This document shows, in pieces, positions 26,606 to 60,246 of a stretch of 64,000 nucleotides of DNA; within the stretch, counting starts at the first letter, position 1, and each line of letters begins with the position of its first letter. Source of the stretch: Nitrosopumilus sp. (lineage in GTDB: Bacteria; Desulfobacterota; Binatia; UBA1149; SPBQ01); assembly GCA_964225545.1 (NCBI GenBank), contig CAXQPB010000037.1, positions 1,989 to 65,988 on the forward strand, written 5' to 3'. The translations under genes were made by a program, and so were the position numbers. The notes beneath the pieces are model-generated. The model ran no database searches, was not told where the DNA came from, and worked only from the letters and a program-made list of their open reading frames with translations.

Positions 26606-27541
26606 ATGGCTTCCGGATCGAAAAAGGTCATCTACGCCGCGCTGATCGGCAACCTTCTGATCGCAATCACCAAGTTCATCGCCGGCGGGATCACCGGCAG
26701 CTCGGCCATGTTCTCCGAAGGCGTTCACTCGCTCGTCGATACCGGCAACCAGGGACTGCTGCTGCTCGGCCTGCGTCGAGCCGGCCAGGCTCCGGACGCT
26801 ACTCATCCTTACGGCTACGGGAAAGAGGTCTACTTCTGGAGCTTCGTCGTCGCGATCATGATTTTCGCGGTCGGCTCCGGAGTCTCCCTCTACGAGGGCA
26901 TCCATCGACTGCTCGACCCTCACCCGGTCTCAAGACCGCTGGTGAACTACATCGTACTCGCTCTCGCGATCGTCTTTGAAGGCGTGGCGTGGAAGATGGC
27001 GCTGAGCGAGTTCCAGGCGCAGAAGGGGAAACTCGGTTATCTCGAGGCTGTCCGGCGAGGAAAAGACCCGACCAACTTCGTGGTTCTGTTTGAGGACTCG
27101 GCGGCGATGCTCGGCTTGATCATCGCGCTCGCCGGCGTCGCGCTCGGTCAGATCACCGGCAATCCGATCTGGGACGGCGTCGCCGCGACATTGATCGGGA
27201 TCATCCTCGCATTGGTGGCAATCTGGCTCGCGTTCGAAACCAAGGGACTGCTGATCGGCGAATCCGCGCGCAGGGAAGTCGTGGAGGCCATTCAGCGGCT
27301 GGCCCGCGCAGCCGAGCACGTCGAGGCGGTCGGCGAAGTCCTGACCCTTCACATGGGTCCGAACTTCATCCTCGTAAATCTGAACGTCGGCTTCGCCGAT
27401 GTCAGCGCCGACGAGATCGAACATTCGATTGCCGGCCTCGATCGCGAGATCAAGTACCTGTTCCCGGAGGTCAAGCGCGTGTTCATCGAGGCGGAGGCGA
27501 TCAGCGGCAAACGCGGCCCGAAGAGCACCCCGCGCGGCTGA
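26606..27541 (+). CDS. Cation diffusion facilitator (CDF) family metal efflux transporter (CzcD/FieF-like).
   Basis: Six TM helices, the CDF signature (SEGVHSLVDTGNQ...) and a C-terminal cytoplasmic domain. Confidence 0.9.
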   Translation: MASGSKKVIYAALIGNLLIAITKFIAGGITGSSAMFSEGVHSLVDTGNQGLLLLGLRRAGQAPDATHPYGYGKEVYFWSFVVAIMIFAVGSGVSLYEGIHRLLDPHPVSRPLVNYIVLALAIVFEGVAWKMALSEFQAQKGKLGYLEAVRRGKDPTNFVVLFEDSAAMLGLIIALAGVALGQITGNPIWDGVAATLIGIILALVAIWLAFETKGLLIGESARREVVEAIQRLARAAEHVEAVGEVLTLHMGPNFILVNLNVGFADVSADEIEHSIAGLDREIKYLFPEVKRVFIEAEAISGKRGPKSTPRG

Positions 27542-39135: not shown

Positions 39136-40539
39136 ATGAGAACGATTCAAATCATCCGGTTCCGCACGATCGGGTGTCTTCTGGTGCTCGCCGTCGGGGC
39201 CATGCCTGCCGGATGCGCGCGTTACCGTGCAAACCCCCCACTGGACTCGTGGGACCATACACGCCCGCTGCTCTCGATGGGCCGGTCATCGAAAACCGAC
39301 TCGGCATTGATCCTGCTGGCGTTTTCGGGCGGCGGCACTCGCGCGGCAGCCCTCTCATACGGCGTACTCGAAGAACTACGCGACACGCACGTCGAGGTCG
39401 ACGGGCAGAATCTGCGTATGGTGGATCAGGTCGACGTCATCTCGGGCGTCTCCGGCGGAAGTTTCACCGCGGCGTATTACGGTCTCTTCGGCGACCGGAC
39501 CTTCGAAGATTTCGAGTCGCGAGTCCTGCGTCGGAACCTGCAGCGTGATCTCTGGCGCCGGCTGCTGAACCCCTACAACTTGCTCAGACTGGCAAGCCCC
39601 CACTTCAACCGCAGCGATCTTGCCGCGGAGTATTACGACTCGAAAATCTTCGATAGGAAAACGATCGGTAATTTTGCGGACGTAGCCGGGCCGGCGATCC
39701 TCATCAATGCGACGGACTTCGTTCGCGGAAGTCGATTCGCGTTCATCCGGGAGTATTTCGATCCGATCTGCAGCGACCTGCTGAAATATCCCGTGGCGCG
39801 AGCGGTCGCCGCGTCCTCCTCGGTTCCTGGACCTTTTCCTCCTCTGAAATTGCGCAATCATGCAGGAACGTGCGGCTACAATGAACCTCCATGGATTGCG
39901 CAAACGCTCGAGACCGATACCGCCCACGGTCGCCGTTACATTGAAGCCCGTCTCGCGGCGTCGTATCTCGATCGCACTGAGGGCAACGACATCTACCTCG
40001 TGGACGGCGGCTTGACCGACAATCTCGGGATCCGCGGGACCTTCGACCGCGTGATCAAAGACGGGGGCATCAGCGAAATGCTCGACACCGCCGGCCGCGA
40101 AGAGGTCAATCAGATTCTGATCATTCTCGTCAATGCACAGACCGAACCGGACCTCGACTTCGACCGCGGCAGCTTCTTCCAATCCCTCGCACTCATGGCC
40201 GGCGTGAGCGCAGGCATCCAGATTCGGCGCTTCAACTACGAGACGATCGAGCTTGTCCGTAACAGCTTCCAGCAATGGGCAGAGCTGCGTAGCCATCGCG
40301 GACATCCGATCGATTTCCGAATGGTCGAGATCAGCTTTTCTCAGATTCGCGATGGGGAAACGCGACGTTACTTCAACAACCTTCCTACCAGCCTCGCCCT
40401 GCCTCAAAGCGCGGTCTTGCGTCTCAGGGAGGCCGGCCGCAACCTGCTCCGCGAATCGACTGACTTCCAGGAAGCTGTCGAGATTCTCAAATCGGGGCGG
40501 GTCCGTGAATCCGAGCTGCGCCGCACCGCAGCCGACTGA
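39136..40539 (+). CDS. Patatin-like phospholipase, lipoprotein.
   Basis: Lipobox (LAVGAMPAGC), the oxyanion GGGTRAA motif and the GVSGGS nucleophile elbow. Confidence 0.85.
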   Translation: MRTIQIIRFRTIGCLLVLAVGAMPAGCARYRANPPLDSWDHTRPLLSMGRSSKTDSALILLAFSGGGTRAAALSYGVLEELRDTHVEVDGQNLRMVDQVDVISGVSGGSFTAAYYGLFGDRTFEDFESRVLRRNLQRDLWRRLLNPYNLLRLASPHFNRSDLAAEYYDSKIFDRKTIGNFADVAGPAILINATDFVRGSRFAFIREYFDPICSDLLKYPVARAVAASSSVPGPFPPLKLRNHAGTCGYNEPPWIAQTLETDTAHGRRYIEARLAASYLDRTEGNDIYLVDGGLTDNLGIRGTFDRVIKDGGISEMLDTAGREEVNQILIILVNAQTEPDLDFDRGSFFQSLALMAGVSAGIQIRRFNYETIELVRNSFQQWAELRSHRGHPIDFRMVEISFSQIRDGETRRYFNNLPTSLALPQSAVLRLREAGRNLLRESTDFQEAVEILKSGRVRESELRRTAAD

Positions 40540-40724: not shown

Positions 40725-41129
40725 ATGTCGCGTTTCTGGAGCAAAGCACTCAAGGTCCTCACAGTAGCGCTGTTTGCGCTCTGGGTGCCCCTCGGCCCGT
40801 TCCTTTCGGTCGCGGGCGCCTCCATGCAGTCCTCACCCTGCTGCCAGCACAAATCGGCTCGCAAGGTCGGCTGCCATGGCAGTGCAACGACTGCAGCCTC
40901 CCAGGAAGAGGCAAAGAAGTCCTGCCGATGCCACAAGCAACTCGAGCTGCGCAGCGCACGCTGCGGCTGCGGCAACCACGCTCAGGACTTGATGCTGCAG
41001 GCCGATCCGGCCCGACTCAGTATGAAAACGGTCCTGTCTCCCGCCCCGCTCAGCCATCCGGTGAGTGTCCAGGTCGGGGTGTATGAAGGGGCCCTGGTCC
41101 TGCCTGAACGTCCCCCTCCCATTTCCTGA
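40725..41129 (+). CDS. Small secreted Cys/His-rich protein (134 aa), unknown function; paralog of 58780..59142.
   Basis: Signal-peptide-like N-terminus. Motifs PCCQHK, GCHGSATTAAS, CRCHK and CGCGNH, with a C-terminal ...LPERPPPIS. Confidence 0.45.
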   Translation: MSRFWSKALKVLTVALFALWVPLGPFLSVAGASMQSSPCCQHKSARKVGCHGSATTAASQEEAKKSCRCHKQLELRSARCGCGNHAQDLMLQADPARLSMKTVLSPAPLSHPVSVQVGVYEGALVLPERPPPIS

Positions 41130-41456
41130 CTCCGACCACGAACAATTCGTTGTTGAGCCACGCATGAATTCGCGGCGTGCGCTCCGGCGACAGTATCGCT
41201 GCGATGCGCTCGTATGCGGGCGCGTCTCGGCGATGTAGAGCCGGCTCAGCGGACACGTATCAACACGCGACGGTTCCCGCCGGCTCTCAGAAGTTCGCTG
41301 GCAACCGCAACGTTCGGAAGTCCAGTCCATCACTGCTCCGCGCGGCCGTTGCCGCGTGGCAGATGGAACACGTGTTCACGACTTTCCCGGGGAGGCCAGG
41401 TGCCGTCCCGCGCAGTCGGGTTCACGCGGGGTGGTGTGGCGGACAGGAACATTGAT

Positions 41457-42515
41457 GTGAAGAAGCAGAATCGGAAGTACCGGCTCAGTGCGTTCGCGCC
41501 GAGCCTCCTCGCCGTTCTCGTTGCGGCGACGATTCACGGCTCCGCGCCGACGGTACACGCGTGTGACGTTTGCTCGATCTATATCGGCACAACCAAGCAG
41601 GAACAGCGTAAGGGACCGTTTGTCGCCGCTGCCGAGCAGTTCACGCGCTTCGGCACTCTTCAACTCAATGGAAAAGAAATTCCGAACTTCGACAACGAGC
41701 GCGTCGACAGCTCGATCACTCAGTTCGTGCTCGGTTACACATTCAGCCGCAGGGCTCACGTGCAGGTAAATGTCCCGTTCATCAACCGCGACTATCGGCG
41801 GGTTACGGCGACCGGGACCGAGTCAGGCAAGGAGACCGGTGTCGGCGACATTATGCTCGTCGGTCGCTACAGCGTGGTGCAGACGGTCTTTCCCAACAGC
41901 ATCCTCAACCTCGACCTCGTCGGCGGTTTGAAGTTGCCGAGCGGCAGTACCGATCGGCTCGGGGAAGATCCGATTCCCGTACCGGAGGCGGCCGAAGCCA
42001 GAGGGAGTTCATTTTCCCGGCAGACCATCGAGGGGCCGCGTCCGCACCACGATGGTGAAACGTCGATCAGCGGTGTCCACGGTCATGATCTGACACTGGG
42101 AACCGGGTCGGTGGACGGCATGATCGGAACGCGGCTTTTCACCTCGTACCAAAGGCTGTTCTTCGCCGCGGGCGTGCAATACATGCTCCGCACCGAGGGA
42201 GACTACAAGTACCACTACGCCAACGAGCTCCAGTGGAATTCGAGCATAGGCGCGTATGTACTCCTCAACCACGACTACACGTTCGCGCTCGAGTCGTGGA
42301 TCCACGGCGAGACCAAGGGCAAGGATACCCAGAACGGGGTGCGCATCGACGACACCTCGGTAACCGCCCTCTATATCGGCCCGAAAGCCCGATTCAGTTA
42401 TCGCGACCGGACCAATGCTGATTTCGGTATCGGTTTTCCGGTCATTCAGAACACTACCGATCTCCAGATCGTCGCAGACTGGAGAATTCGTGCTGCATGG
42501 ATCTGGCACTTCTGA
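41457..42515 (+). CDS. Outer-membrane beta-barrel protein (MetA-pathway/phenol-degradation-like transporter family, putative).
   Basis: Signal peptide RLSAFAPSLLAVLVAATIHGSAPTVHA. Alternating amphipathic beta-strand pattern. C-terminal aromatic residue (…AAWIWHF). Probable GTG start at 41457; the ATG-initiated track ORF would add about 80 aa of unlikely N-terminus. Confidence 0.5.
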   Translation: MKKQNRKYRLSAFAPSLLAVLVAATIHGSAPTVHACDVCSIYIGTTKQEQRKGPFVAAAEQFTRFGTLQLNGKEIPNFDNERVDSSITQFVLGYTFSRRAHVQVNVPFINRDYRRVTATGTESGKETGVGDIMLVGRYSVVQTVFPNSILNLDLVGGLKLPSGSTDRLGEDPIPVPEAAEARGSSFSRQTIEGPRPHHDGETSISGVHGHDLTLGTGSVDGMIGTRLFTSYQRLFFAAGVQYMLRTEGDYKYHYANELQWNSSIGAYVLLNHDYTFALESWIHGETKGKDTQNGVRIDDTSVTALYIGPKARFSYRDRTNADFGIGFPVIQNTTDLQIVADWRIRAAWIWHF

Positions 42516-42559: not shown

Positions 42560-43510
42560 ATGCATCACTTACAGGTGACAGGAACGCTCCGAAGCAGAAC
42601 TCGAGGCCGCACCACGGCAACCGCAATCGGCGCCGCTGCAGCAGTGCTGGTCATGTCGTTGTGCAGTCCGACGCCCGCGCAAGCAGACGATGAGGTACAT
42701 TCGGAAATCCTCTTCTACTCGGCCGCGGATGGCGGCGGACAGATCATGGCAGACTTTGATTTTTCCGAACATGTGCACGTCGCGCCAGTGGGATGCAGCT
42801 CAGGGAGCTGTGTTTACACCCACCAAGGAACGGGACTGGTGGCAGCGGGGCCGGGCGAGGCGCACCACGGTCTTTACCTGCTCGACGATGGCATTCTGTT
42901 CACCCTCGAGATCGTATCCATCAGCCCGGAAGTCTCGATCCGCTCCGGCAACGCGACACTGAATACGGACGGGCAGATCCTGCGACTGGGTTTCAGCCCC
43001 TTCCATCTCGACCTCGTATGGCAGTTGGAGCTGCCGGAGGGCGACGTTCACGAGGCGTCGGTTACATTCAAGGTCACGAGCAGCTCCCCTGCGTACCTCG
43101 ACTCGCCGCCGTACACGCTGTGGCTATCGAACGAGGAAGAGCATCATGAGACGACGACCACCACGATGGGCTTCGTCACCACCACGACGCACGACGCGCA
43201 TTCTCACTGCGGAGACGGGTTCGTCGACCACGGGGAGACATGTGATGAAGGGCATCACCATTGGTCCATGGGCCATCACTGCGGCGCGGATTGCAATCTG
43301 CTGGCCTGTGGTGACCCCGACGATACCGGCGAGGTCACCGTCGTCGATGCGCTCCATACGCTGAAAACCGCGGTCGATCTGGCCTCCTGTGACCTCTGCG
43401 TTTGCGACGTCAACAGCGACCGGAGCATCACGCCGAGCGATGCCCTTTTGAGCCTCCAGGAGGCAACCCAGAGCTCACACCACGCGATGGAGTGTCCCGC
43501 CTGCGAGTGA
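42560..43510 (+). CDS. Secreted protein with a His/Thr-rich region, a Cys-rich CGDG...ETCDEG motif and a C-terminal dockerin-like Ca-binding repeat (DVNSDRSITPSDALLSL).
   Basis: RBS AAAGGA then ATG 42560 and a signal peptide ending in AQA. Motifs identified by eye. Confidence 0.55.
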   Translation: MHHLQVTGTLRSRTRGRTTATAIGAAAAVLVMSLCSPTPAQADDEVHSEILFYSAADGGGQIMADFDFSEHVHVAPVGCSSGSCVYTHQGTGLVAAGPGEAHHGLYLLDDGILFTLEIVSISPEVSIRSGNATLNTDGQILRLGFSPFHLDLVWQLELPEGDVHEASVTFKVTSSSPAYLDSPPYTLWLSNEEEHHETTTTTMGFVTTTTHDAHSHCGDGFVDHGETCDEGHHHWSMGHHCGADCNLLACGDPDDTGEVTVVDALHTLKTAVDLASCDLCVCDVNSDRSITPSDALLSLQEATQSSHHAMECPACE

Positions 43511-54886: not shown

Positions 54887-57800
54887 TCAGCGGGTACTGC
54901 AGCGAATTCGCGTGTTGCCCTCGCAGTCCATGTCCGGGTCGCTGATACACTCTCCAGATGCCGGATCGCCGAACGTGTAGGTGGCCGTAAGAGGTCCGAT
55001 CTCGTCGCTGATCGGCCCTCCGAGGTTCCCGAGATCAAGGTGGAGATCCCGGATCCTGGCCATCACCCGGATCGTCGAAGATGCCGAGTGGTACTTGATG
55101 CGCAGCCGCGACATTCCCGGTGCCTCGATCGACAGCCGACTCGGGTTGTAGCTGTAGGTCGAGCCGCGCACCCGGAAACCTTCAGCCGGCAGGATCGCCG
55201 CGTAGACGGGCTGGGAGTTCGCGTCGAGGATGACCATGTTGAAGCCGTCGAGCGAAGGCGACTTCGTCACCATCAAGCTGGAGAACGACACCTTGATGTC
55301 CATGCTGTCGTCAGCAGGGCGGGTAGACCGCTTGATTCGGATCCGGCCCTCATCCGCCCGGTTCATTTCACCCGAGATGCATTCCCCTGCCACGCAGAAG
55401 TCATTCATCGTACAGATGTCACCGTCGTCGCATCCATAGCCGTCATCCGCCACCGCCGGCTCGCAGGTGTCGGTCAGCTCGCGGCACTCCTCGATGATAC
55501 AATTCTCCGTGCTCTCACAAGGAGCGAGCGAAGACGCACATCCCGCACCGGCATGGCAGACTTCCGCGCCATTGCAGAACTGGCCATCATCGCAGTGCGC
55601 ATTGTTCGCTGCGTTCACGACAGCGTCGATATCCTCGTCGCAATAGTCATCGGTGCAGGCGACGCCGTCGTCGAGCGACGGGGACACGCCTGCCAGACAA
55701 CCTCGGAAAGCGTCACAGGTTTCCGCTCCGTTGCAGAACTGGCCGTCGTCGCAGTTGGCATCGTCCGTAGAGTGCACCATCGAATCCGTGACCTCGTCAC
55801 AGCTGTCTACCGTGCACGCGATTCCGTCGTCGGTCGACGGAGCCGTACCCGCGAGGCACCCCAGCGACACATCACACACTTCCGGACCGTTGCAGAATTC
55901 GCCGTCGTCACATGAAACGTGAAGCGGCGCATTTGTGATGACATCGGCGACCTCGTCGCAGCCATCGATCGTGCACGCCAGCCCGTCGTCCGTGGACGGC
56001 GGGGTACCCGGCTGACAATCGAGCGTCGCGTCGCAGCTCTCCACGCCGTTGCAGAACTGACCGTCATCGCAGTTGGAATCGTCTGCTGCGTACTCGCACC
56101 CGTCGATGAGATCGCAGATATTGTTCGTACAGCCGACAAAGTCATCACAACGCGCGTCGACAGGGGTGCTCGTGCACCAGCCCGCAACACAGGCCTCCTC
56201 CGTGCAATCTACTCCGTCATCGCAATGCGAGGCGCTGTTGCAGTTTCCGTAGAAGAATACCTCGTGAACCGTGGACCCGGAGAAGCCCTGGGTCGTGCCA
56301 CCGGAAACCGTATGGACGAGCGTGCGGCCGTTGTCCTCGACTGCGGCGACGCCCATGAATCCATGGCGCGGGGTCGGGATACTCATCAGGGAGCGCCATG
56401 TATCAGCGCGGGGGTTGTACTCGTGAACGGCATCCACCACCCCGTTCTCGTTTCCACCGGCTGCCAGTGAGAGCTCTCCAGCGAATACCACGATTCGATC
56501 TTCGACCACGGCTGAGGCGTAGCCTCCACGAGCGATCGGAGGCGGTGCCGCTGCACTCCAACTGCCGGTCGCGATATCGTAGACGTGCGTCGAGTCCACG
56601 ACGGTATTCGTCAACCCGTTCCGACCGGAGACGACGTAAAACTTCGAGTCGATCACGTGAGCCTGCGCGCTGTCCCGAGCCTGAGGCATCGAAGCCAGTG
56701 TGAACCACTCATTGTGTGCGCTGCTGTAAGCCCAGAAGCTGTCGACAGCCGGCTCAGGATCTGAGCCGGAGTCTCCCGTACCTCCAGCGCAATAGATCCA
56801 TCCATTGTGGGACGCGCACGCCATGGAACCGCGAGGCTCCGGCAGCGGCGCCAGCGATTGCCATCCGGCAGCAGGATTGTTCGCGTCGAGCACCAGGAGC
56901 TGGTCAGTCGGCTCACGGACGGTCGTCGAGAGACCTCCCGGCATATAGATCCGGTCTTCGATCACGACCGGTTGTACATGGTTACGACCGTGCCCGTCGT
57001 CATCGAGACCCGGAAGCGACGGCCCGGCCGACCAGGTGTCCGTCGCTATATCGTAAACTTCGACGCTGCGGCCTGCGCCCGACTGCTCACCGCCGATCAG
57101 CCACAGCTTGCCGGTCGTGGCCGCAAGCGCAGCCTCACCTCGAGCGATCGCGTTCGACGCGCGAACATCCCAGTAGCCATCACCCAGACAGTCGTCCTCG
57201 GCGGTGCCAGCGGCATCGGGGCAAAAGTCGCAGGCATCTCCGATCCCGTCGCCATCGCGGTCTGACTGCGAGGGGTTGCTGACCGAGGGGCAGTTGTCAC
57301 GGTCGGCGACAGCCGGCGAGGAGTAGCCTGCACCGGCGCAGATTCCATCGCCGTCTGCATCATCGGTCAGATCATCAGGGCAGAAGTCGAACAGATCGCA
57401 GGTGCCGTCGGCATCGGCGTCTACGCCTCCGGGAAGATGCACACAGTACTCATCGTCATTGCAGACATCGGCAGTGCACGGGTTTCCGTCGTTGCAGTCG
57501 CTATCCTTCTCACACAGCTGTACAAGCCTGTGGATCTCGACAGCCTTGAGTGCTGCGTTCGAGTCACCGCTGTCCGCGCTGTCCTCGGTCAGCTTGATAT
57601 CGAGCCGACCATCGGAGACCGTCGTCGTCGCGCTGCGAACGACAAGACCGCCACAGGCATTCGTCTCCCCGCTCTCGGCACGGGCGCTGGCATACGGATC
57701 GAAGCCGTCGCCTACCGCCGCGCCTCCGTAAACGCGATTCCCTTCAAGTTCGATGTCGATCGTTCGCGACCCTGCCTGACACGCGCCCTGGAATGTCTCG

Positions 57801-58324
57801 GCGAACAGGAGGTTCACGATGTAGTCGCCGTTGGCTACCGGATAGCTTCGCGAAAGCACCGCGGCCCAGCGCTCAGTCGCGAGTATCGCCTCGGTTGAAT
57901 CGTTGCTGCAGCCGAATGCGGCGGTCACCGGAGCGGAATGGAGCAGCACTCCGTGACTCGGGGAGCTTGTTCCTCCGGAGCCGTGATCGACGTTCCAGAC
58001 GTCACCGTTGCAATCGGTGGTCGGAAAAAACACGCCGAGGTCCAGCCGCAAATCAGAGCCGGCAGCACAGTCTGCCGCCCCGGAAGATACCGGAGCGCAG
58101 GTAGCGATCGGACCGTTGCAGCGGTTCAGCATGTCGGCAGGGCACGGATCTACCGCATCTGCCATGCCGTCGCAGTCTGTGTCTCCTGCGGGTGGAAACG
58201 CGCAGCTCGCATTTGCGAGACCGGGTAAGGCACATAGAGCCACACCGATGCATACAATCGCGATACCGGCACGAAGGTGCAGGCGAGAGGGAAGTGAGTG
58301 TTTTGAAATTTTGCCGAAATACAT
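54887..58324 (-). CDS. Giant secreted protein (about 1145 aa). Signal peptide, TSP3-like D-rich Ca-binding repeats, a six-blade Kelch-type beta-propeller, then four or more tandem roughly 50-aa Cys-rich repeats (CDDGxFCNGxExCD...GC..G..PS.DDG.ACT.D.CDE; Myxococcus-type cysteine-rich repeat).
   Basis: Start at MYFGKISKHSL... (ATG 58322-58324) with a signal peptide ...ALPGLANA. Kelch blades (LWLIGG, RIYMPGG, GWIYCAGG, KFYVVSG, RIVVFAG). Repeats read directly from the translation. Confidence 0.75.
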   Translation of the reverse strand: MYFGKISKHSLPSRLHLRAGIAIVCIGVALCALPGLANASCAFPPAGDTDCDGMADAVDPCPADMLNRCNGPIATCAPVSSGAADCAAGSDLRLDLGVFFPTTDCNGDVWNVDHGSGGTSSPSHGVLLHSAPVTAAFGCSNDSTEAILATERWAAVLSRSYPVANGDYIVNLLFAETFQGACQAGSRTIDIELEGNRVYGGAAVGDGFDPYASARAESGETNACGGLVVRSATTTVSDGRLDIKLTEDSADSGDSNAALKAVEIHRLVQLCEKDSDCNDGNPCTADVCNDDEYCVHLPGGVDADADGTCDLFDFCPDDLTDDADGDGICAGAGYSSPAVADRDNCPSVSNPSQSDRDGDGIGDACDFCPDAAGTAEDDCLGDGYWDVRASNAIARGEAALAATTGKLWLIGGEQSGAGRSVEVYDIATDTWSAGPSLPGLDDDGHGRNHVQPVVIEDRIYMPGGLSTTVREPTDQLLVLDANNPAAGWQSLAPLPEPRGSMACASHNGWIYCAGGTGDSGSDPEPAVDSFWAYSSAHNEWFTLASMPQARDSAQAHVIDSKFYVVSGRNGLTNTVVDSTHVYDIATGSWSAAAPPPIARGGYASAVVEDRIVVFAGELSLAAGGNENGVVDAVHEYNPRADTWRSLMSIPTPRHGFMGVAAVEDNGRTLVHTVSGGTTQGFSGSTVHEVFFYGNCNSASHCDDGVDCTEEACVAGWCTSTPVDARCDDFVGCTNNICDLIDGCEYAADDSNCDDGQFCNGVESCDATLDCQPGTPPSTDDGLACTIDGCDEVADVITNAPLHVSCDDGEFCNGPEVCDVSLGCLAGTAPSTDDGIACTVDSCDEVTDSMVHSTDDANCDDGQFCNGAETCDAFRGCLAGVSPSLDDGVACTDDYCDEDIDAVVNAANNAHCDDGQFCNGAEVCHAGAGCASSLAPCESTENCIIEECRELTDTCEPAVADDGYGCDDGDICTMNDFCVAGECISGEMNRADEGRIRIKRSTRPADDSMDIKVSFSSLMVTKSPSLDGFNMVILDANSQPVYAAILPAEGFRVRGSTYSYNPSRLSIEAPGMSRLRIKYHSASSTIRVMARIRDLHLDLGNLGGPISDEIGPLTATYTFGDPASGECISDPDMDCEGNTRIRCSTR
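55500..56100 (-). repeat. Tandem approximately 150 nt repeats encoding the Cys-rich CDDGxFCNG...ETCD modules (approximate coordinates).
   Basis: Four near-identical protein modules in the translation. Coordinates estimated from the protein positions. Confidence 0.5.
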
Positions 58325-58449
58325 TCCGTAGTCCTGCTGCGAAAACAGCGCAGTCACAGATCGGCGCGCGGCCGTTCCGTTGAGATTCCCGATCGAAGTT
58401 CGTCGCTCCGATTCTTCAGCTGCATTTCCCGAACAGCCAGACCACTTTC

Positions 58450-58457
58450 GGGGGGGG
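58450..58457. repeat. Homopolymeric G8 tract about 125 nt upstream of the giant secreted protein's start codon.
   Basis: Seen directly (tttcGGGGGGGGcgac). Confidence 0.9.
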
Positions 58458-58779
58458 CGACATGCACCACCCGGACGGGGAGTATGACGCCGGCCGCTAC
58501 CACCCGACTGCGCGAGTCCCCTTGCAGCACCGGCGGAGGACTCCAGCGGTCTTATTTTCAGGCACTTATCCAGCCTGCTCACCGGGGCGAGCGGTCGCAT
58601 GCATTGCTTCGCCCCGTGTTGATGATCGTGAGCGAGAGCGATCCGCGCGTTCGTCGCTTCCCTGAGGATTCCGACGAGACTTCAAAACCTCCGCTATGTA
58701 CTGCTTGATCCCTGATCGGGGGGGCGGTTGAAGAGCTAAGCTGTCCGGGATTCGAATTCTCGCGCCGGCCCTCGCGGCC

Positions 58780-59142
58780 GTGTGGATGCTCCGACCGTTC
58801 ACCCCCTTGCTCACCTGCGCGTCGATCGCAATTTCGGATACGCCGGAGGTCGCGGCAGCCATGCCGTGCCACGGATCGGCGCCGCAAGCCGCCGCTTCTT
58901 CCGGTGCTCCGGCAGACCGCAAATGCTGTGAGCGCACCGACGGAACCTGCTGCCTGGACGCGGCAGCGCTCGATACGACGCTCGACGCTCCGAACCACCC
59001 GGAACAACTCGCTTCGACACTGATCGTGTTGCGCGCCGATGGGGAAGCGGGGCGGCACCAGGAAGGCTGTCCCCCCAGGATCTTACCGGGCCCGAATCTC
59101 GGGCCACCTCCGATTTCGACCGTCTCGATACTCAGGCTCTGA
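58780..59142 (+). CDS. Small Cys-rich secreted protein (120 aa), paralog of 40725..41129 (shared CHGSA..AAAS motif and a C-terminal ...GPPPIS).
   Basis: Hydrophobic N-terminus and motifs PCHGSAPQAAASS, KCCERTDGTCC and ...LPGPNLGPPPIS. Sits 31 nt upstream of the CusA remnant. Confidence 0.4.
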   Translation: MWMLRPFTPLLTCASIAISDTPEVAAAMPCHGSAPQAAASSGAPADRKCCERTDGTCCLDAAALDTTLDAPNHPEQLASTLIVLRADGEAGRHQEGCPPRILPGPNLGPPPISTVSILRL

Positions 59143-59172
59143 TTCCCGGGCCTCACTCGCTCATCCTGGCGG

Positions 59173-60246
59173 ATGACCACAGCCTGCGCGTGCGAATGCG
59201 GGATGCGTATCGTTGCGCGTTCCCTGCTCGACGTGGCCTTCGCGGAATTCCGTATTGCGAAATCCATGACGCGGCTGGTTTTCAAACACGCCGCAGGCAG
59301 TGGAACCATGTATCGATCTATCACTACAGGAGTCAAGACGCCGCTCGGCATCAAGATCATGGGACCAGACCTCGACAGACTCGGGGAACTGGCCGAGGAG
59401 ATCGCGGGGCGGGTTCGCACGCTGGACGGAACACTGTCGGCGTACCCGGAGAAGACCGTGGGCGGTAATTACTTCGATTTCGAGATCGACCGCCGCGCTC
59501 GAGAACACGCGCGTCGCACCGCATGGGTTTACGCCGACCTTGCCGGAGTGGACATCGGCACTTATGTCGAACGCGCGCGGCGTCTCATCGGTGAGCGGAT
59601 CGCGTTGCCGCCCGGCTACAGCCTGATCTGGTCGGGACAGTACGAATACATGCAGGCGGCAAGTGCGCGACTGCGGGTTCTCATCCCGGTGACCATTCTG
59701 GCGATCTTCATTCTGCTTCGGCTGCACTTCGGCAATCTCGTCGAATCTTCCCCCGCCATGCTGACACTCCCGTTCGCCCTGGTCGGAGGGATATGGCTGC
59801 TCTGGTTGCTGGACCTGATCGCGCGGTCGAGCGCCGGCGGATCCTACAATCTTTCGGTTGCGGTCTACGCAGGCTTGATCGCGCTTGCCGGACTGGCAGC
59901 TGAAACCGGCATCGTGATGCTTGTCTACATCGACGGCGCCTACCAGCGCATGTGCGGCGAGGGGCTCCTGAACAGAACGGCTGATGTGAGACGGGCCGTC
60001 ATGGATGGCGCGGTCCAGCGCGTCCGACCGAAGGTGATGACCGTAGCGACGACGGCACTCGCGCTCCGGCCGATCATGTGGACCACGAGCACCGGTGCGG
60101 AAACCATGAAGCGAATCGCAGCGCCGACGATCGGCGGACTTATCAGTACCACGATTTTGACCCTGGTCATTGTGCCGGTCGTGTACGAAATCTATCTCGA
60201 GCGTCGCTTCTCGCGTGAACGCGAGGCGGACCGGACGCCTACCTGA
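59173..60246 (+). pseudogene. Remnant or fragment of a heavy-metal-efflux RND permease (CusA/CzcA family). It encodes only the C-terminal third (approximately TM8-TM12).
   Basis: The 357 aa ORF matches the C-terminal region of HME-RND pumps (…GVKTPLGIKIMGPDLDRL…ALRPIMWTTSTGAETMKRIAAPTIGGLISTTILTLVIVPVVY…). A full-length CusA is about 1040 aa, and no N-terminal two-thirds lies upstream. Confidence 0.55.

What the first reader, a model, noticed from the sequence alone, without database searches (positions are those of the whole stretch)
40725..41129. Paralogous pair of small secreted Cys/His-rich proteins ending in ...PPPIS (first copy, next to an outer-membrane barrel)
40725..41129 and 58780..59142 encode about 120-135 aa proteins that share a CHGSA(xx)AAAS motif, CC/CxC clusters and a near-identical C-terminus (LPERPPPIS versus LGPPPIS). 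I recognise no family. The Cys/His content and the genomic neighbours (an OMP here; a CusA remnant for the other copy; a CDF transporter elsewhere in the window) suggest periplasmic metal binding or chaperoning, but this is speculation.
Basis: partly seen in the sequence, partly recalled or inferred. Interest (0 to 1): 0.55.

Follow-up and report, generated by a model that had tools for sequence, protein, structure and literature searches.

The report
Metal-sensing leader peptide genes (CutF-like)
The two small Cys/His-rich genes belong to a rare, unannotated family that has the hallmarks of known "leader" proteins, which sense metals while being made and exported and then switch on the next gene; one copy is intact and the other is a broken remnant of a metal-efflux operon.

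Summary
ORF 40725..41129 (134 aa) and ORF 58780..59142 are homologous: both have CHGSA, Cys clusters and PPPIS. They belong to a family of about 13 metagenomic proteins with no Pfam or NCBIfam assignment.

Copy 2 does not end in PPPIS; it runs on to ...SILRL. It is a pseudogene remnant. Its start region carries ATG>TTG, a nonsense codon, a 32-nt deletion and a ~124-nt upstream deletion. The czcCBA-like operon it once headed is deleted down to a czcC'-'czcA fusion.

Every intact copy-2-type relative with context lies 105-169 nt upstream of an OEP gene, and CusB/CzcB follows wherever the contig extends.

All intact members (the window's truncated copy 2 aside) share these features:
- an N-terminal export signal
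- Cys/His motifs
- a poorly conserved, low-confidence linker of fixed length (47 or 49-50 residues)
- a C-terminal (G/R/S)PP(P) motif (one relative, P0016, has AP instead)

That is the architecture of CutF, CruR and CopL, the cis-acting metal-sensing leader peptides. CutF ends PEPEGPPPRL.

In relatives, and in the fold predicted for copy 1, the stop-codon region pairs with the downstream Shine-Dalgarno sequence.

Best reading: a divergent, undescribed clade of CutF-like regulatory leader proteins rather than a metallochaperone. Sequence membership in DUF2946, CopL or CzcI is not demonstrated. No experiment supports the mechanism here.

The parts
40725..41129 (+). Copy 1: intact 134-aa leader-type ORF (ATG start, TGA stop at 41127..41129)
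   Evidence: ORF list. A 93%-identical homolog P0001 occurs in the same synteny. Family profile hit E = 7.8e-42. No Pfam or NCBIfam family.
40725..40820 (+). Predicted Sec-type export signal (residues 1-32): n-region MSRFWSKALK (+3), hydrophobic core with the family-invariant W20, P22 and P25, and an AGA|S cleavage-type site
   Evidence: Heuristic analysis. AlphaFold2 gives a confident helix only for residues 2-34. Invariant columns are from alignment A3. No dedicated signal-peptide predictor was available.
40839..40979 (+). Cys/His cluster (C39 C40 H42 ... C50 H51 G52 ... C67 C69 H70 ... C80 C82 H85): the putative metal-binding part
   Evidence: Residue positions. C50, H51, C69 and C82 are invariant across the 12 aligned family members.
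40971..41111 (+). Linker (residues 83-129): poorly conserved in sequence but fixed in length (47 residues from the last cluster Cys to the first C-terminal Pro)
   Evidence: Spacing is 47 in all four copy-1-type proteins and 49-50 in the copy-2-type members that have a C-terminal PP. The CH-to-CC distance varies from 16 to 24. pLDDT is below 50 for residues 83-126.
41112..41120 (+). PPP codons (P130-P132) within ...PERPPPIS-stop: the candidate ribosome-stalling motif
   Evidence: Sequence. A C-terminal PP(P) is conserved in 11 of the 12 aligned family members. CutF's experimentally required motif is PEPEGPPPRL (bioRxiv 10.1101/2025.02.05.636593).
41123..41140 (+). 5' arm of the predicted long-range helix: last codon, stop codon and the next 11 nt
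   Evidence: In the minimum-free-energy fold of 41090..41480 it pairs with 41435..41449, with pair probabilities of 0.7-0.99. Duplex energy alone is not unusual for this G+C-rich genome (fraction of background at least as stable = 0.19).
41130..41456 (+). 327-nt intergenic region between copy 1 and the next gene; no terminator-like site predicted
   Evidence: About 95% identical to L001, whereas the region upstream of copy 1 diverges. No terminator-like site in the intergenic region. No Rfam family. Fold z-score -1.86.
41435..41449 (+). 3' arm of the predicted helix, containing the AGGA Shine-Dalgarno (41445..41448) of the GTG start at 41457
41457..42515 (+). Downstream gene 1: 352-aa secreted protein with a CDVC motif right after its signal peptide, His-rich segments (HHDGE, HGHD) and a C-terminal ...WIWHF. 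Outer-membrane-protein-like but unverified; the candidate regulated gene
   Evidence: ORF and synteny in L001. No Pfam hit, no PDB hit, AlphaFold2 model unusable.
42560..43510 (+). Downstream gene 2: 316-aa secreted His/Cys-rich protein (poly-Thr, HHH, weak DUF4215 / dockerin / myxo_disulf_rpt-like C-terminus)
   Evidence: Conserved in L001.
58732..59142 (+). Copy 2: 5'-truncated remnant of a copy-2-type leader ORF (open frame from 58732; GTG ORF 58780..59142; NCBI aa from M28). PPP at 59104..59112; ends ...SILRL-stop
58728..58749 (+). Wreck of the original start region: TTG (was ATG), AAG, AGC, TAA (was TAC), followed by a 32-nt deletion and frameshift. A ~124-nt deletion lies just upstream
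   Evidence: DNA alignment with the intact relative L003. Sequence.
59173..60246 (+). Remnant of the efflux operon: the 5' leader and first codons of the OEP (czcC-type) gene, through ...MYRSIT (junction near 59326), fused in frame to the last ~305 codons of a CusA/CzcA RND pump
   Evidence: The N-terminus aligns with the L003 OEP gene. The C-terminal part matches TIGR00914 positions 823-1045 at E = 1.4e-73 and ACR_tran positions 807-1018.

Best explanation
Both ORFs belong to a rare, unannotated family of small exported Cys/His-rich leader proteins. They work like CutF of Rhodobacter, CruR of Bordetella and CopL of Xanthomonas, which are cis-acting nascent-chain metal sensors.

Proposed mechanism for the intact copy 1 (inferred by analogy, not shown here):
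1. The protein is exported co-translationally through Sec.
2. When the ribosome reaches the C-terminal PPP (41112..41120), the Cys/His cluster lies about 47 residues back. That is just long enough to have emerged on the periplasmic side.
3. Metal binding to the cluster changes the pulling force or folding of the nascent chain. This changes how long the ribosome dwells on PPP-I-S-stop.
4. A ribosome parked there covers the stop-codon region (41123..41140). That region is otherwise predicted to pair with the Shine-Dalgarno region (41435..41449) of the next gene.
5. Dwell time therefore sets expression of the downstream OMP-like gene, and probably of the His-rich gene after it.

A CruR-style alternative, in which stalling controls Rho-dependent termination in the long intergenic region, is equally compatible. 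The direction of regulation cannot be deduced.

The copy-2 type does the same job at the head of czcCBA/cusCBA-like efflux operons. The window's copy 2 is a dead remnant of such an operon.

The metal is unknown. Cysteine-rich motifs and CusB-type adaptors with a heavy-metal-binding domain suggest Cu/Ag or Zn/Cd/Co.
For: 1. Architecture shared by all members:
- The intact members have a positively charged n-region plus a hydrophobic core (P0016, whose called start falls inside the hydrophobic core, shows none; the window's copy 2 has lost it).
- All have invariant C-H(-G) and further Cys pairs.
- 11 of 12 aligned members have PP(P) within the last 13 residues.

2. Fixed spacing. The distance from the last cluster Cys to the first C-terminal Pro is 47 in all four copy-1-type proteins and 49-50 in the eight copy-2-type sequences that have a C-terminal PP. 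The linker sequence is not conserved and the upstream CH-to-CC distance varies from 16 to 24. [quoted passage not shown] CutF has a 45-residue distance (PMC9973294).

3. C-terminal motif. The family has PERPPPIS, PDPGPPPIS, PDIPPPIS and PDVSPPGC. [quoted passage not shown] X. citri CopL ends ...LIRPPIG.

4. Genomic position. All seven copy-2-type loci with context have the small ORF first, 105-169 nt upstream of an OEP gene (169 nt to the lipobox start in L003). CusB/CzcB with HMBD follows wherever the contig extends. OEP is the commonest downstream neighbour of CutF-like proteins (PMC9973294). Copy-1-type ORFs precede secreted proteins after intergenic regions of 250-330 nt.

5. Shine-Dalgarno masking.
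- In L011 and L019, a 10-bp helix joins the last codon, stop codon and next 5 nt to AGAACUCAGA at the OEP start.
- In L017, CCUCCGU one nucleotide after the stop codon pairs with ACGGAGG.
- Duplex tests give fractions of 0.0035, 0.0055, 0.044 and 0.067.
- The same arrangement appears in folds of the known CopL-copA region and of two further small-ORF-TolC pairs on pLH201.1.
- It also appears in the fold of the window's copy 1 region.

6. The mature part is not predicted to fold. Mean pLDDT is 53, and below 50 for residues 83-126.

7. Two relatives give sub-threshold hits to NCBIfam CopL_fam: E = 1.9e-4 and 2.4e-3, covering most of the profile.
Against: - There is no experimental evidence for any member.
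- Sequence homology to known families is not demonstrated. Pfam DUF2946 hits none of 12 members. hhalign against a CzcI/DUF2946 alignment gives 0.7% probability and against X. citri CopL 2.5%. The CopL_fam scores of 22 and 18.5 bits fall below the 40-bit cutoff, and the window's own proteins do not hit it at all.
- The Cys motifs are CxC/CC, not CXXC or CXXXC. The residue before PP is not conserved, so this is not a RAPP-type arrest motif.
- For copy 1, the stop-codon/Shine-Dalgarno helix is not statistically distinguishable from chance in this G+C-rich genome (0.19). It is not the minimum-free-energy solution in the close relative L001. There is no covariation to test.
- The 327-nt intergenic region is long for a CutF-type stem-loop mechanism.
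- In copy-2-type genes the PP lies 11 codons before the stop. A ribosome stalled there would not reach the stop-proximal arm, so the simple model needs a second pause at the conserved ...[IV]LRL-stop, or another logic.
- The low AlphaFold2 confidence may only reflect the 12-sequence alignment.
- The downstream genes of copy 1 have no demonstrated link to metals beyond their CxxC and His-rich composition.
Confidence: 0.58

Rival explanations
1. One reading: stable periplasmic or membrane-anchored metal-binding proteins. These would act in trans as a metallochaperone or buffer for the efflux system (CusF-like), or as a sensor or regulator (as has been suggested for CzcI).
For: - Export signal and conserved Cys/His residues.
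- Constant association with HME-RND operons.
- CzcI occupies the same position upstream of czcC and has been discussed as a regulator (PMC9973294).
- The long uncharged N-terminal stretch could be an uncleaved membrane anchor.
Against: - No CusF or other metallochaperone domain is detected.
- The mature part is predicted with low confidence and lacks a compact fold.
- What is conserved is linker length rather than sequence, plus a PP(P) motif at the extreme C-terminus. A chaperone fold does not explain either.
- CutF-type proteins with these same features are rapidly degraded after export and act only in cis.
Confidence: 0.25
2. The proteins are something else entirely: Cys-rich precursors of modified peptides (chalkophore or RiPP-like), or anti-sigma or other envelope signalling proteins. 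The resemblance to CutF/CopL would then be superficial.
For: - Small Cys-rich proteins with N-terminal leaders are typical of RiPP precursors.
- DUF2946 genes occur in methanobactin-type operons (PMC9426467).
- Homology to the known leader families is undetectable.
Against: - No maturase, radical-SAM enzyme, ECF sigma factor or peptide-export genes are adjacent in the window or in any related locus.
- The neighbours are OEP/CusB/RND genes or secreted proteins.
- The fixed Cys-to-PP spacing and the Shine-Dalgarno-masking helices would be unexplained.
Confidence: 0.07
3. Copy 1 is, like copy 2, a non-functional relic or a mis-called ORF.
For: - Copy 2 is demonstrably decayed.
- dN/dS for copy 1 against its only close relative is 0.55, based on 16 substitutions.
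- The family is extremely rare.
Against: - Copy 1 is intact, with an ATG start and an export signal.
- Relatives at 45% identity (P0005, P0015) keep every motif and the exact 47-residue spacing.
- Synteny with the two downstream genes is kept in L001.
Confidence: 0.05

Closest known systems
CutF of Rhodobacter capsulatus and the operationally defined 'CutF-like' proteins (Ozturk et al., mBio 2023, PMC9973294; bioRxiv 10.1101/2025.02.05.636593)
   Same: - Under 150 aa with a Sec-type signal.
- A Cys motif about 45-50 residues before a C-terminal GPPP-type motif. CutF has PEPEGPPPRL; the family here has PDPGPPPIS, PERPPPIS and similar.
- First gene, on the same strand as a metal-homeostasis gene. 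OEP of RND systems is the commonest neighbour.
- A structured intergenic region able to mask the downstream Shine-Dalgarno sequence.
   Different: - No detectable sequence homology: Pfam DUF2946 does not hit.
- Cys motifs are C-H-G plus CxCH/CxC or CC...CC, not CxxxC.
- Copy-2-type members have 8-9 further residues after the PP(P) motif, ending in a conserved [IV]LRL.
- Copy 1's intergenic region is 327 nt, against fewer than 100 nt for most CutF-like genes.
- Copy 1's downstream genes (an OMP-like protein, a His-rich protein, or CHRD proteins in relatives) are not among the reported neighbours.
- Nothing has been tested experimentally.
CopL of Xanthomonas / Stenotrophomonas (NCBIfam NF033807 'CopL family metal-binding regulatory protein')
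   Same: - About 140 aa with a hydrophobic N-terminus.
- A PDCCKSS..C.C.C cluster, comparable to SDCCKDVEGNCC in P0008.
- The C-terminus ...LIRPPIG-stop resembles ...PERPPPIS-stop.
- It sits upstream of its regulated gene (copA), and its stop-proximal sequence pairs next to the copA Shine-Dalgarno sequence in the fold.
- Two family members give sub-threshold CopL_fam hits.
   Different: - Scores fall below the curated cutoff.
- hhalign gives 2.5% probability.
- The window's proteins do not hit the model.
- The downstream gene is a multicopper oxidase, not an OEP or OMP-like protein.
CruR (Bp2923) / Pfam DUF2946 (PF11162) (Roy et al., mBio 2022, PMC9426467)
   Same: - Exported upstream ORF heading a metal-related operon.
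- Conserved Cys motif, a fixed ~45-residue spacing and a C-terminal Pro-Pro arrest motif.
- A long intergenic region (162 nt), as in copy-1-type loci.
- The downstream gene encodes an outer-membrane protein.
   Different: - No PF11162 match.
- CXXC and RAPP are replaced by CxC/CC and xPP(P). Only copy 1 has an Arg (RPPP).
- No rut-like C-rich, G-poor tract stands out in the intergenic region.
CzcI of Cupriavidus metallidurans pMOL30 and its plasmid-borne relatives
   Same: - Same genomic slot as the copy-2 type: a small exported protein immediately upstream of czcC.
- A C-terminal P-[ED]-R-P motif (PERPQW), comparable to copy 1's PERPPP.
   Different: - hhalign gives 0.7% probability.
- CzcI has the His-rich H.GHHEH.H and DC..CH motifs and lacks the Pro-Pro motif.

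Membership tests
Pfam DUF2946 (PF11162) / CruR family | Match to the PF11162 profile | tested here: not met
   None of 12 family members matches at E <= 10. The library does contain the model, because CzcI hits it at E = 0.026.
Pfam DUF2946 (PF11162) / CruR family | Conserved CXXC motif | tested here: not met
   Copy-1 type has CC, CxCH and CxC. Copy-2 type has CC-x6-CC. No member has a conserved CXXC.
Pfam DUF2946 (PF11162) / CruR family | C-terminal RAPP motif a few residues before the stop codon | tested here: not met
   Copy 1 has RPPP two residues before the stop. Other members have IPPP, SPPP, GPPP or SPP, and one has AP. The Arg and Ala are not conserved.
Pfam DUF2946 (PF11162) / CruR family | Fixed spacing of about 45 residues between the Cys motif and the Pro motif | tested here: met
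   47 residues to the first Pro in 4 of 4 copy-1-type proteins, and 49-50 in the 8 copy-2-type sequences with a C-terminal PP, despite an unconserved linker sequence. The reference value comes from PMC9426467.
Pfam DUF2946 (PF11162) / CruR family | N-terminal export signal (signal peptide or N-in/C-out anchor) | tested here: met
   Charged n-region plus a 25-32-residue uncharged stretch and (-3,-1) sites in all intact members except P0016, whose called start falls inside the hydrophobic core. Absent from the window's copy 2. This is a heuristic only; SignalP was not available.
CutF-like proteins (operational definition, PMC9973294) | Under 150 aa, PP within the last 15 residues, signal peptide, and a same-strand downstream gene within 1000 nt | tested here: met
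   Copy 1 is 134 aa, has PPP at residues 130-132 of 134 and a signal as above, and the next gene is 327 nt downstream on the same strand. Relatives meet the criteria too, though P0015 is 152 aa.
CutF-like proteins (operational definition, PMC9973294) | Reachable by iterative sequence search from CutF (membership of one of the 29 SSN clusters) | not testable with these tools
   No CutF sequence or cluster HMMs were available. The proxies (PF11162, a CzcI alignment, CopL) gave no significant link.
CutF-like proteins (operational definition, PMC9973294) | Intergenic stem-loop that masks the Shine-Dalgarno sequence of the downstream gene | tested here: inconclusive
   Clear in L011, L012, L019 and L017. 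For copy 1 it is predicted with high pair probability, but its energy is not significant (0.19) and no covariation is available.
CutF-like proteins (operational definition, PMC9973294) | Metal-dependent, cis-only control of the downstream gene through ribosome stalling | not testable with these tools
   Needs reporter, toeprint or Ribo-seq experiments.
CopL family (NCBIfam NF033807) | Score at or above the curated cutoff (40 bits) | tested here: not met
   P0008 scores 22.1 bits (E = 1.9e-4) and P0006 18.5 bits (E = 2.4e-3). The two window proteins and the other members give no hit. hhalign against X. citri CopL gives 2.5% probability.
CzcI family | Sequence similarity to CzcI (H.GHHEH.H and DC..CH motifs) | tested here: not met
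   hhalign of A3 against a 10-sequence CzcI/DUF2946 alignment gives 0.7% probability. The motifs are absent.
CzcI family | Small exported protein encoded immediately upstream of czcC | tested here: met
   True for all copy-2-type relatives with context, and historically for the window's copy 2. Not true for copy 1.
Periplasmic metallochaperones (CusF and similar) | Recognisable metallochaperone domain or fold | tested here: not met
   No Pfam, NCBIfam or PDB sequence hit. AlphaFold2 shows no compact fold.

The most novel reading that the evidence does not exclude
This family arose independently of DUF2946 and CopL. It would then be a convergent nascent-chain metal sensor with its own ligand set (C-H-G plus CxCH/CxC or CC...CC) and the same molecular-ruler linker of about 47-50 residues. 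The copy-2 type may use two pause sites, PP and the conserved [IV]LRL-stop. The copy-1 type would control a previously unknown envelope system: a CxxC-bearing OMP-like protein with a His-rich secreted partner, or CHRD-domain proteins in relatives. That would tie these uncharacterised proteins to metal homeostasis.
Probability: 0.25. Interest if true: 0.65.

Novelty: new variant of a known kind. Interest (0 to 1): 0.45.

Why it matters
Control of gene expression by exported, metal-sensing nascent chains (CutF, CruR, CopL) was worked out only in 2022-2025. It has so far been tied to the DUF2946 and CopL sequence families.

A family that the Pfam DUF2946 and NCBIfam CopL models do not capture above threshold, yet keeps the same export signal, the same Cys-to-PolyPro ruler length, the same GPPP-type C-terminus and the same operon position, would have two consequences. 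It would show that the mechanism extends beyond the annotated families. It would also support the view that the ~45-50-residue spacing is the physically constrained feature, set by the combined length of the ribosome tunnel and the SecY channel.

The result also gives a functional handle on the unannotated OMP-like/His-rich gene pair and on bacterial CHRD-domain proteins. The window further preserves a clear example of decay of a czcCBA-type operon together with its leader gene.

Tried and rejected
- Pfam and NCBIfam scans of both ORFs and all relatives gave no family. The only exception was sub-threshold CopL_fam hits in two relatives.
- PDB sequence search with the family profile and with the neighbouring gene found nothing.
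- hhalign against a CzcI/DUF2946 alignment built from ten PLSDB plasmids gave 0.7% probability. Against X. citri CopL it gave 2.5%, and against a second pLH201.1 small ORF 7%. Plasmid CopL genes are all more than 90% identical to each other, so no CopL profile could be built.
- Scans of genome contigs (twice) and metagenome contigs (twice) for further loci found nothing. Two alignments were too diverse to seed a scan. The organism therefore could not be named. RapA and the other housekeeping genes indicate a chromosome.
- AlphaFold2 of copy 1 gave low confidence. AlphaFold2 of the OMP-like neighbour without an alignment was useless, so no fold search was run.
- Rfam found no family in the window. 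There is no terminator-like site in the intergenic region and no obvious C-rich, G-poor rut-like tract.
- Two bait sequences recalled from memory, a Pseudomonas-type DUF2946 protein and a CopL, found nothing in plasmids. They were not used as evidence.
- A lipoprotein reading of the copy-2 type (LLAC / LLTC) was considered and dropped, because positions -2 and -1 do not fit a lipobox.
- A Shine-Dalgarno-masking structure for L003 was not found once its OEP start was moved to the lipobox-bearing MFRSIT....
Full report
**1. Observation**

Both ORFs are present as described.

Copy 1 (40725..41129, +, ATG) encodes 134 aa:
MSRFWSKALKVLTVALFALWVPLGPFLSVAGA|SMQSSPCCQHKSARKVGCHGSATTAASQEEAKKSCRCHKQLELRSARCGCGNHAQ...LPERPPPIS-stop.

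Copy 2 is listed as a GTG ORF (58780..59142, 120 aa). It has CHGSAPQAAAS, two CC pairs and LGPPPIS, but then continues TVSILRL-stop. So only copy 1 ends in PPPIS.

The resemblance is not chance:
- Pairwise BLASTP gives E = 9e-5.
- Profiles of the two subfamilies align with E = 5e-5 and probability 68%.
- A profile built from both types, searched against 1.84 billion representative proteins, recovered only further small proteins of the two types plus a few repetitive false positives.
- A second profile search added six more members.
- No third copy lies in the window.

The family is tiny. About 13 distinct sequences are known, all from metagenomes or MAGs, none named and none with a Pfam domain.

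**2. The genes are real, but copy 2 is a wreck**

Copy 2 against its 73%-identical relative P0003 gives dN/dS = 0.32 at dS = 0.51. Copy 1 against P0001 (93% identical) gives 0.55, but on only 16 substitutions.

P0003 is 148 aa and begins MRTYAAGAMRSRQRNRRRIRILALALAAVWVLGPF.... Aligning the DNA shows what happened to the window's copy:
- The ATG has become TTG.
- Codon 4 has become TAA (58737..58739).
- A 32-nt deletion removes the Arg-rich n-region and shifts the frame.
- About 124 nt further upstream are also missing.

What remains has no charged n-region and only a 14-residue uncharged stretch. NCBI annotators call a 93-aa product from Met28.

Downstream, the ORF 59173..60246 begins like the leader of the P0003-linked OEP gene (...AAGSG[TP]M[YF]RSIT). 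It then switches in frame to the last ~305 residues of a CusA/CzcA pump (TIGR00914 positions 823-1045, E = 1.4e-73). The window therefore holds the stump of a leader-czcC-czcB-czcA operon.

The same stump, with an identical small ORF, is present in three NCBI MAGs and in ENA and Logan contigs.

**3. Context in relatives**

All seven copy-2-type loci with sequence context have the small ORF as first gene, 105-169 nt upstream of an OEP (TolC/CzcC-type) gene (169 nt to the lipobox-bearing start in L003). These are L003, the JGI contig of P0008, L011, L012, L013, L017 and L018. A CusB/CzcB adaptor with a heavy-metal-binding domain follows wherever the contig extends, and then the start of an RND pump.

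Copy-1-type members behave differently:
- In the window and in L001 the small ORF is followed, after 327-328 nt, by a 352-aa secreted protein. That protein has CDVC just after its signal peptide, His-rich loops and a C-terminal ...WIWHF. It has no Pfam or PDB hit, and its AlphaFold2 model without an alignment is useless.
- Next comes a 316-aa His/Cys-rich secreted protein.
- In L015 and L016 the downstream gene, 250-260 nt away, encodes a secreted CHRD-domain protein.

The CDF transporter (26606..27541) is 13 kb away and unrelated by position.

**4. Anatomy of the family**

- Intact members have a positively charged n-region and a 25-32-residue uncharged stretch. That stretch contains an invariant Trp and two invariant Pro, and ends in small-residue (-3,-1) sites. 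The exceptions are P0016, whose called start falls inside the hydrophobic core, and the window's truncated copy 2.
- Next comes an invariant C-H(-G). The copy-1 type then has CxCH and CxC; the copy-2 type has CC-x6-CC.
- A linker follows with almost no sequence conservation but a fixed length. From the last cluster Cys to the first C-terminal Pro there are 47 residues in all four copy-1-type proteins and 49-50 in the eight copy-2-type sequences that have a C-terminal PP. The CH-to-CC distance, by contrast, varies from 16 to 24.
- The C-terminus is P-[DE]-x-x-PP(P): PERPPPIS, PDIPPPIS, PDSPPPIA, PDPGPPPIS, PDVSPPGC. One relative, P0016, has AP at this position.
- The copy-1 type ends 2-8 residues after the PPP. 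The copy-2 type always ends 11-12 residues from the first Pro, in [IV]LRL-stop.
- AlphaFold2 with the 12-sequence alignment is confident only for the N-terminal helix. Mean pLDDT is 53, and residues 83-126 fall below 50.

**5. What this matches**

The literature search points to the CutF/CruR/CopL class.

- *CruR.* DUF2946 proteins are exported upstream ORFs with a CXXC motif and a RAPP motif three residues from the end. [quoted passage not shown] That is 47 residues to the first Pro, the value found here.
- *CutF.* It has a Sec signal, CxxxC and, 45 residues later, P109-EPEGPPPRL-118. Copper binding to the exported part of the nascent chain prolongs stalling on PPP despite EF-P. This lets the ribosome melt a stem-loop that masks the cutO Shine-Dalgarno sequence. 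CutF acts only in cis and is degraded after export (PMC9973294; bioRxiv 10.1101/2025.02.05.636593).
- *CutF-like proteins.* They were defined operationally: under 150 aa, PP in the last 15 residues, a signal peptide and a same-strand downstream gene. Their commonest neighbour is the OEP of RND efflux systems. Copy 1 and its relatives meet every operational criterion.

**6. mRNA structure**

In L011 and L019, the last codon, stop codon and next 5 nt (UCUGAGUUCU) are perfectly complementary to AGAACUCAGA, which abuts the OEP start codon and overlaps its GGGAGAA Shine-Dalgarno sequence.

In L012 and L018 the arms differ but still pair (CUGAG/CUCAG plus CUCC/GGAG or UCCC/GGGA).

In the distant L017, CCUCCGU one nucleotide after the stop codon pairs with ACGGAGG.

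Against 2000 random 33-mers from the window, these duplexes rank at 0.0035, 0.0055, 0.044 and 0.067.

For comparison I retrieved the annotated CopL gene of X. citri plasmid pLH201.1 and two further small Cys-containing ORFs upstream of TolC genes on the same plasmid. In all three, the minimum-free-energy fold pairs stop-proximal sequence with the downstream Shine-Dalgarno region.

For the window's copy 1, the fold of 41090..41480 pairs 41123..41140 (UUCCUG = last codon plus stop, then UCCG and CCACG) with 41435..41449, which contains the AGGA of the GTG start at 41457. Pair probabilities are 0.7-0.99. A ribosome with PPP in its P and A sites would cover this arm.

This prediction has clear limits:
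- The duplex energy is ordinary for this G+C-rich genome (0.19).
- The close relative L001 folds differently in its minimum-free-energy structure.
- No covariation exists to test it.
- The overall z-score of the intergenic region is only -1.86.

The intergenic region is as conserved between the window and L001 (~95%) as the coding DNA, whereas the region upstream of copy 1 is not.

**7. Membership versus mechanism**

Sequence membership in the known families is not shown:
- PF11162 hits none of the 12 members, although it detects CzcI weakly.
- hhalign against a CzcI/DUF2946 alignment built from ten plasmids gives 0.7%.
- hhalign against X. citri CopL gives 2.5%.
- NCBIfam CopL_fam gives only sub-threshold hits to two relatives: 22 and 18.5 bits against a cutoff of 40.
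- The Cys motif (CxC/CC) and the residue before PP differ from CXXC/CxxxC and RAPP.

I therefore file the family as working like CutF/CruR/CopL. It is a new variant, either a very remote relative or a convergent one, and not a demonstrated member.

**8. Verdict**

The most likely function of copy 1 is a cis-acting, exported, metal-sensing leader peptide. It would control the downstream OMP-like/His-rich gene pair through ribosome dwell time at PPP-I-S-stop. Confidence is about 0.58.

Copy 2 is a pseudogene left over from a deleted czcCBA-type operon.

The mechanism, the metal and the direction of regulation are all inferred. None was tested.

Noticed in passing
window 58600..60246: A decayed heavy-metal RND operon. 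The leader gene has lost its start (ATG>TTG, TAC>TAA, a 32-nt and a ~124-nt deletion). An in-frame deletion fuses the first codons of the OEP gene to the last ~305 codons of CusA/CzcA. The identical arrangement is found in several MAGs, so it is fixed in this lineage.
   Followed up: yes
L023-L029 (PLSDB plasmids; e.g. pMOL30 NC_007971.2 75176..75523): CzcI-family genes carry a hairpin whose loop contains their stop codon. The stems show compensatory changes: GTCTCGC/GCGAGAC, CCTCGCC/GGCGAGG and GCTCGCC/GGCGAGC. This suggests a conserved RNA element at the czcI-czcC junction (strings).
   Followed up: partly
L034 9513..9902 (+) and L033 16054..16410 (-) = NZ_CP018859.1 109513..109902 and 146054..146410: Besides CopL, X. 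citri plasmid pLH201.1 has two 'hypothetical' small ORFs directly upstream of TolC-family genes. One ends ...VSDPPPCSASVAC and has 48 residues between a CDQHC motif and PPP. The other ends ...FRPPIAG. Both look like further unannotated CutF/CopL-type leaders.
   Followed up: partly
window 39136..40539 and L026 (Aquincola plasmid B, NZ_CP097638.1): A patatin-like phospholipase gene lies immediately upstream of the small leader-type ORF both in the window (before copy 1) and on the Aquincola plasmid (before a CzcI-family gene). This may be coincidence.
   Followed up: no
window 42560..43510: A 316-aa secreted protein rich in His and Cys. It has a poly-Thr tract, HHH, CGDG..C..C patterns and weak DUF4215 / dockerin / myxo_disulf_rpt-like signals. 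It is conserved next to the OMP-like gene in L001 and its function is unknown.
   Followed up: partly
L015 1173..2285 and L016 1132..1452: In two copy-1-type relatives the downstream gene encodes a secreted protein with tandem CHRD domains. This hints that bacterial CHRD proteins may be under metal-responsive leader control.
   Followed up: partly
window 54887..58600 (-): A 1237-aa secreted protein with Kelch/beta-propeller domains, a weak malectin hit and many Cys-rich DUF4215-like repeats lies just upstream of, and divergent from, the copy 2 remnant.
   Followed up: no
window 41388..41410: An in-frame alternative GTG start at 41400 for the OMP-like gene has a strong GGGGAGG Shine-Dalgarno sequence in the window. 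In L001 this is weakened to GGGCAGG. It sits inside a local hairpin in the predicted fold, so the true start codon is uncertain.
   Followed up: partly
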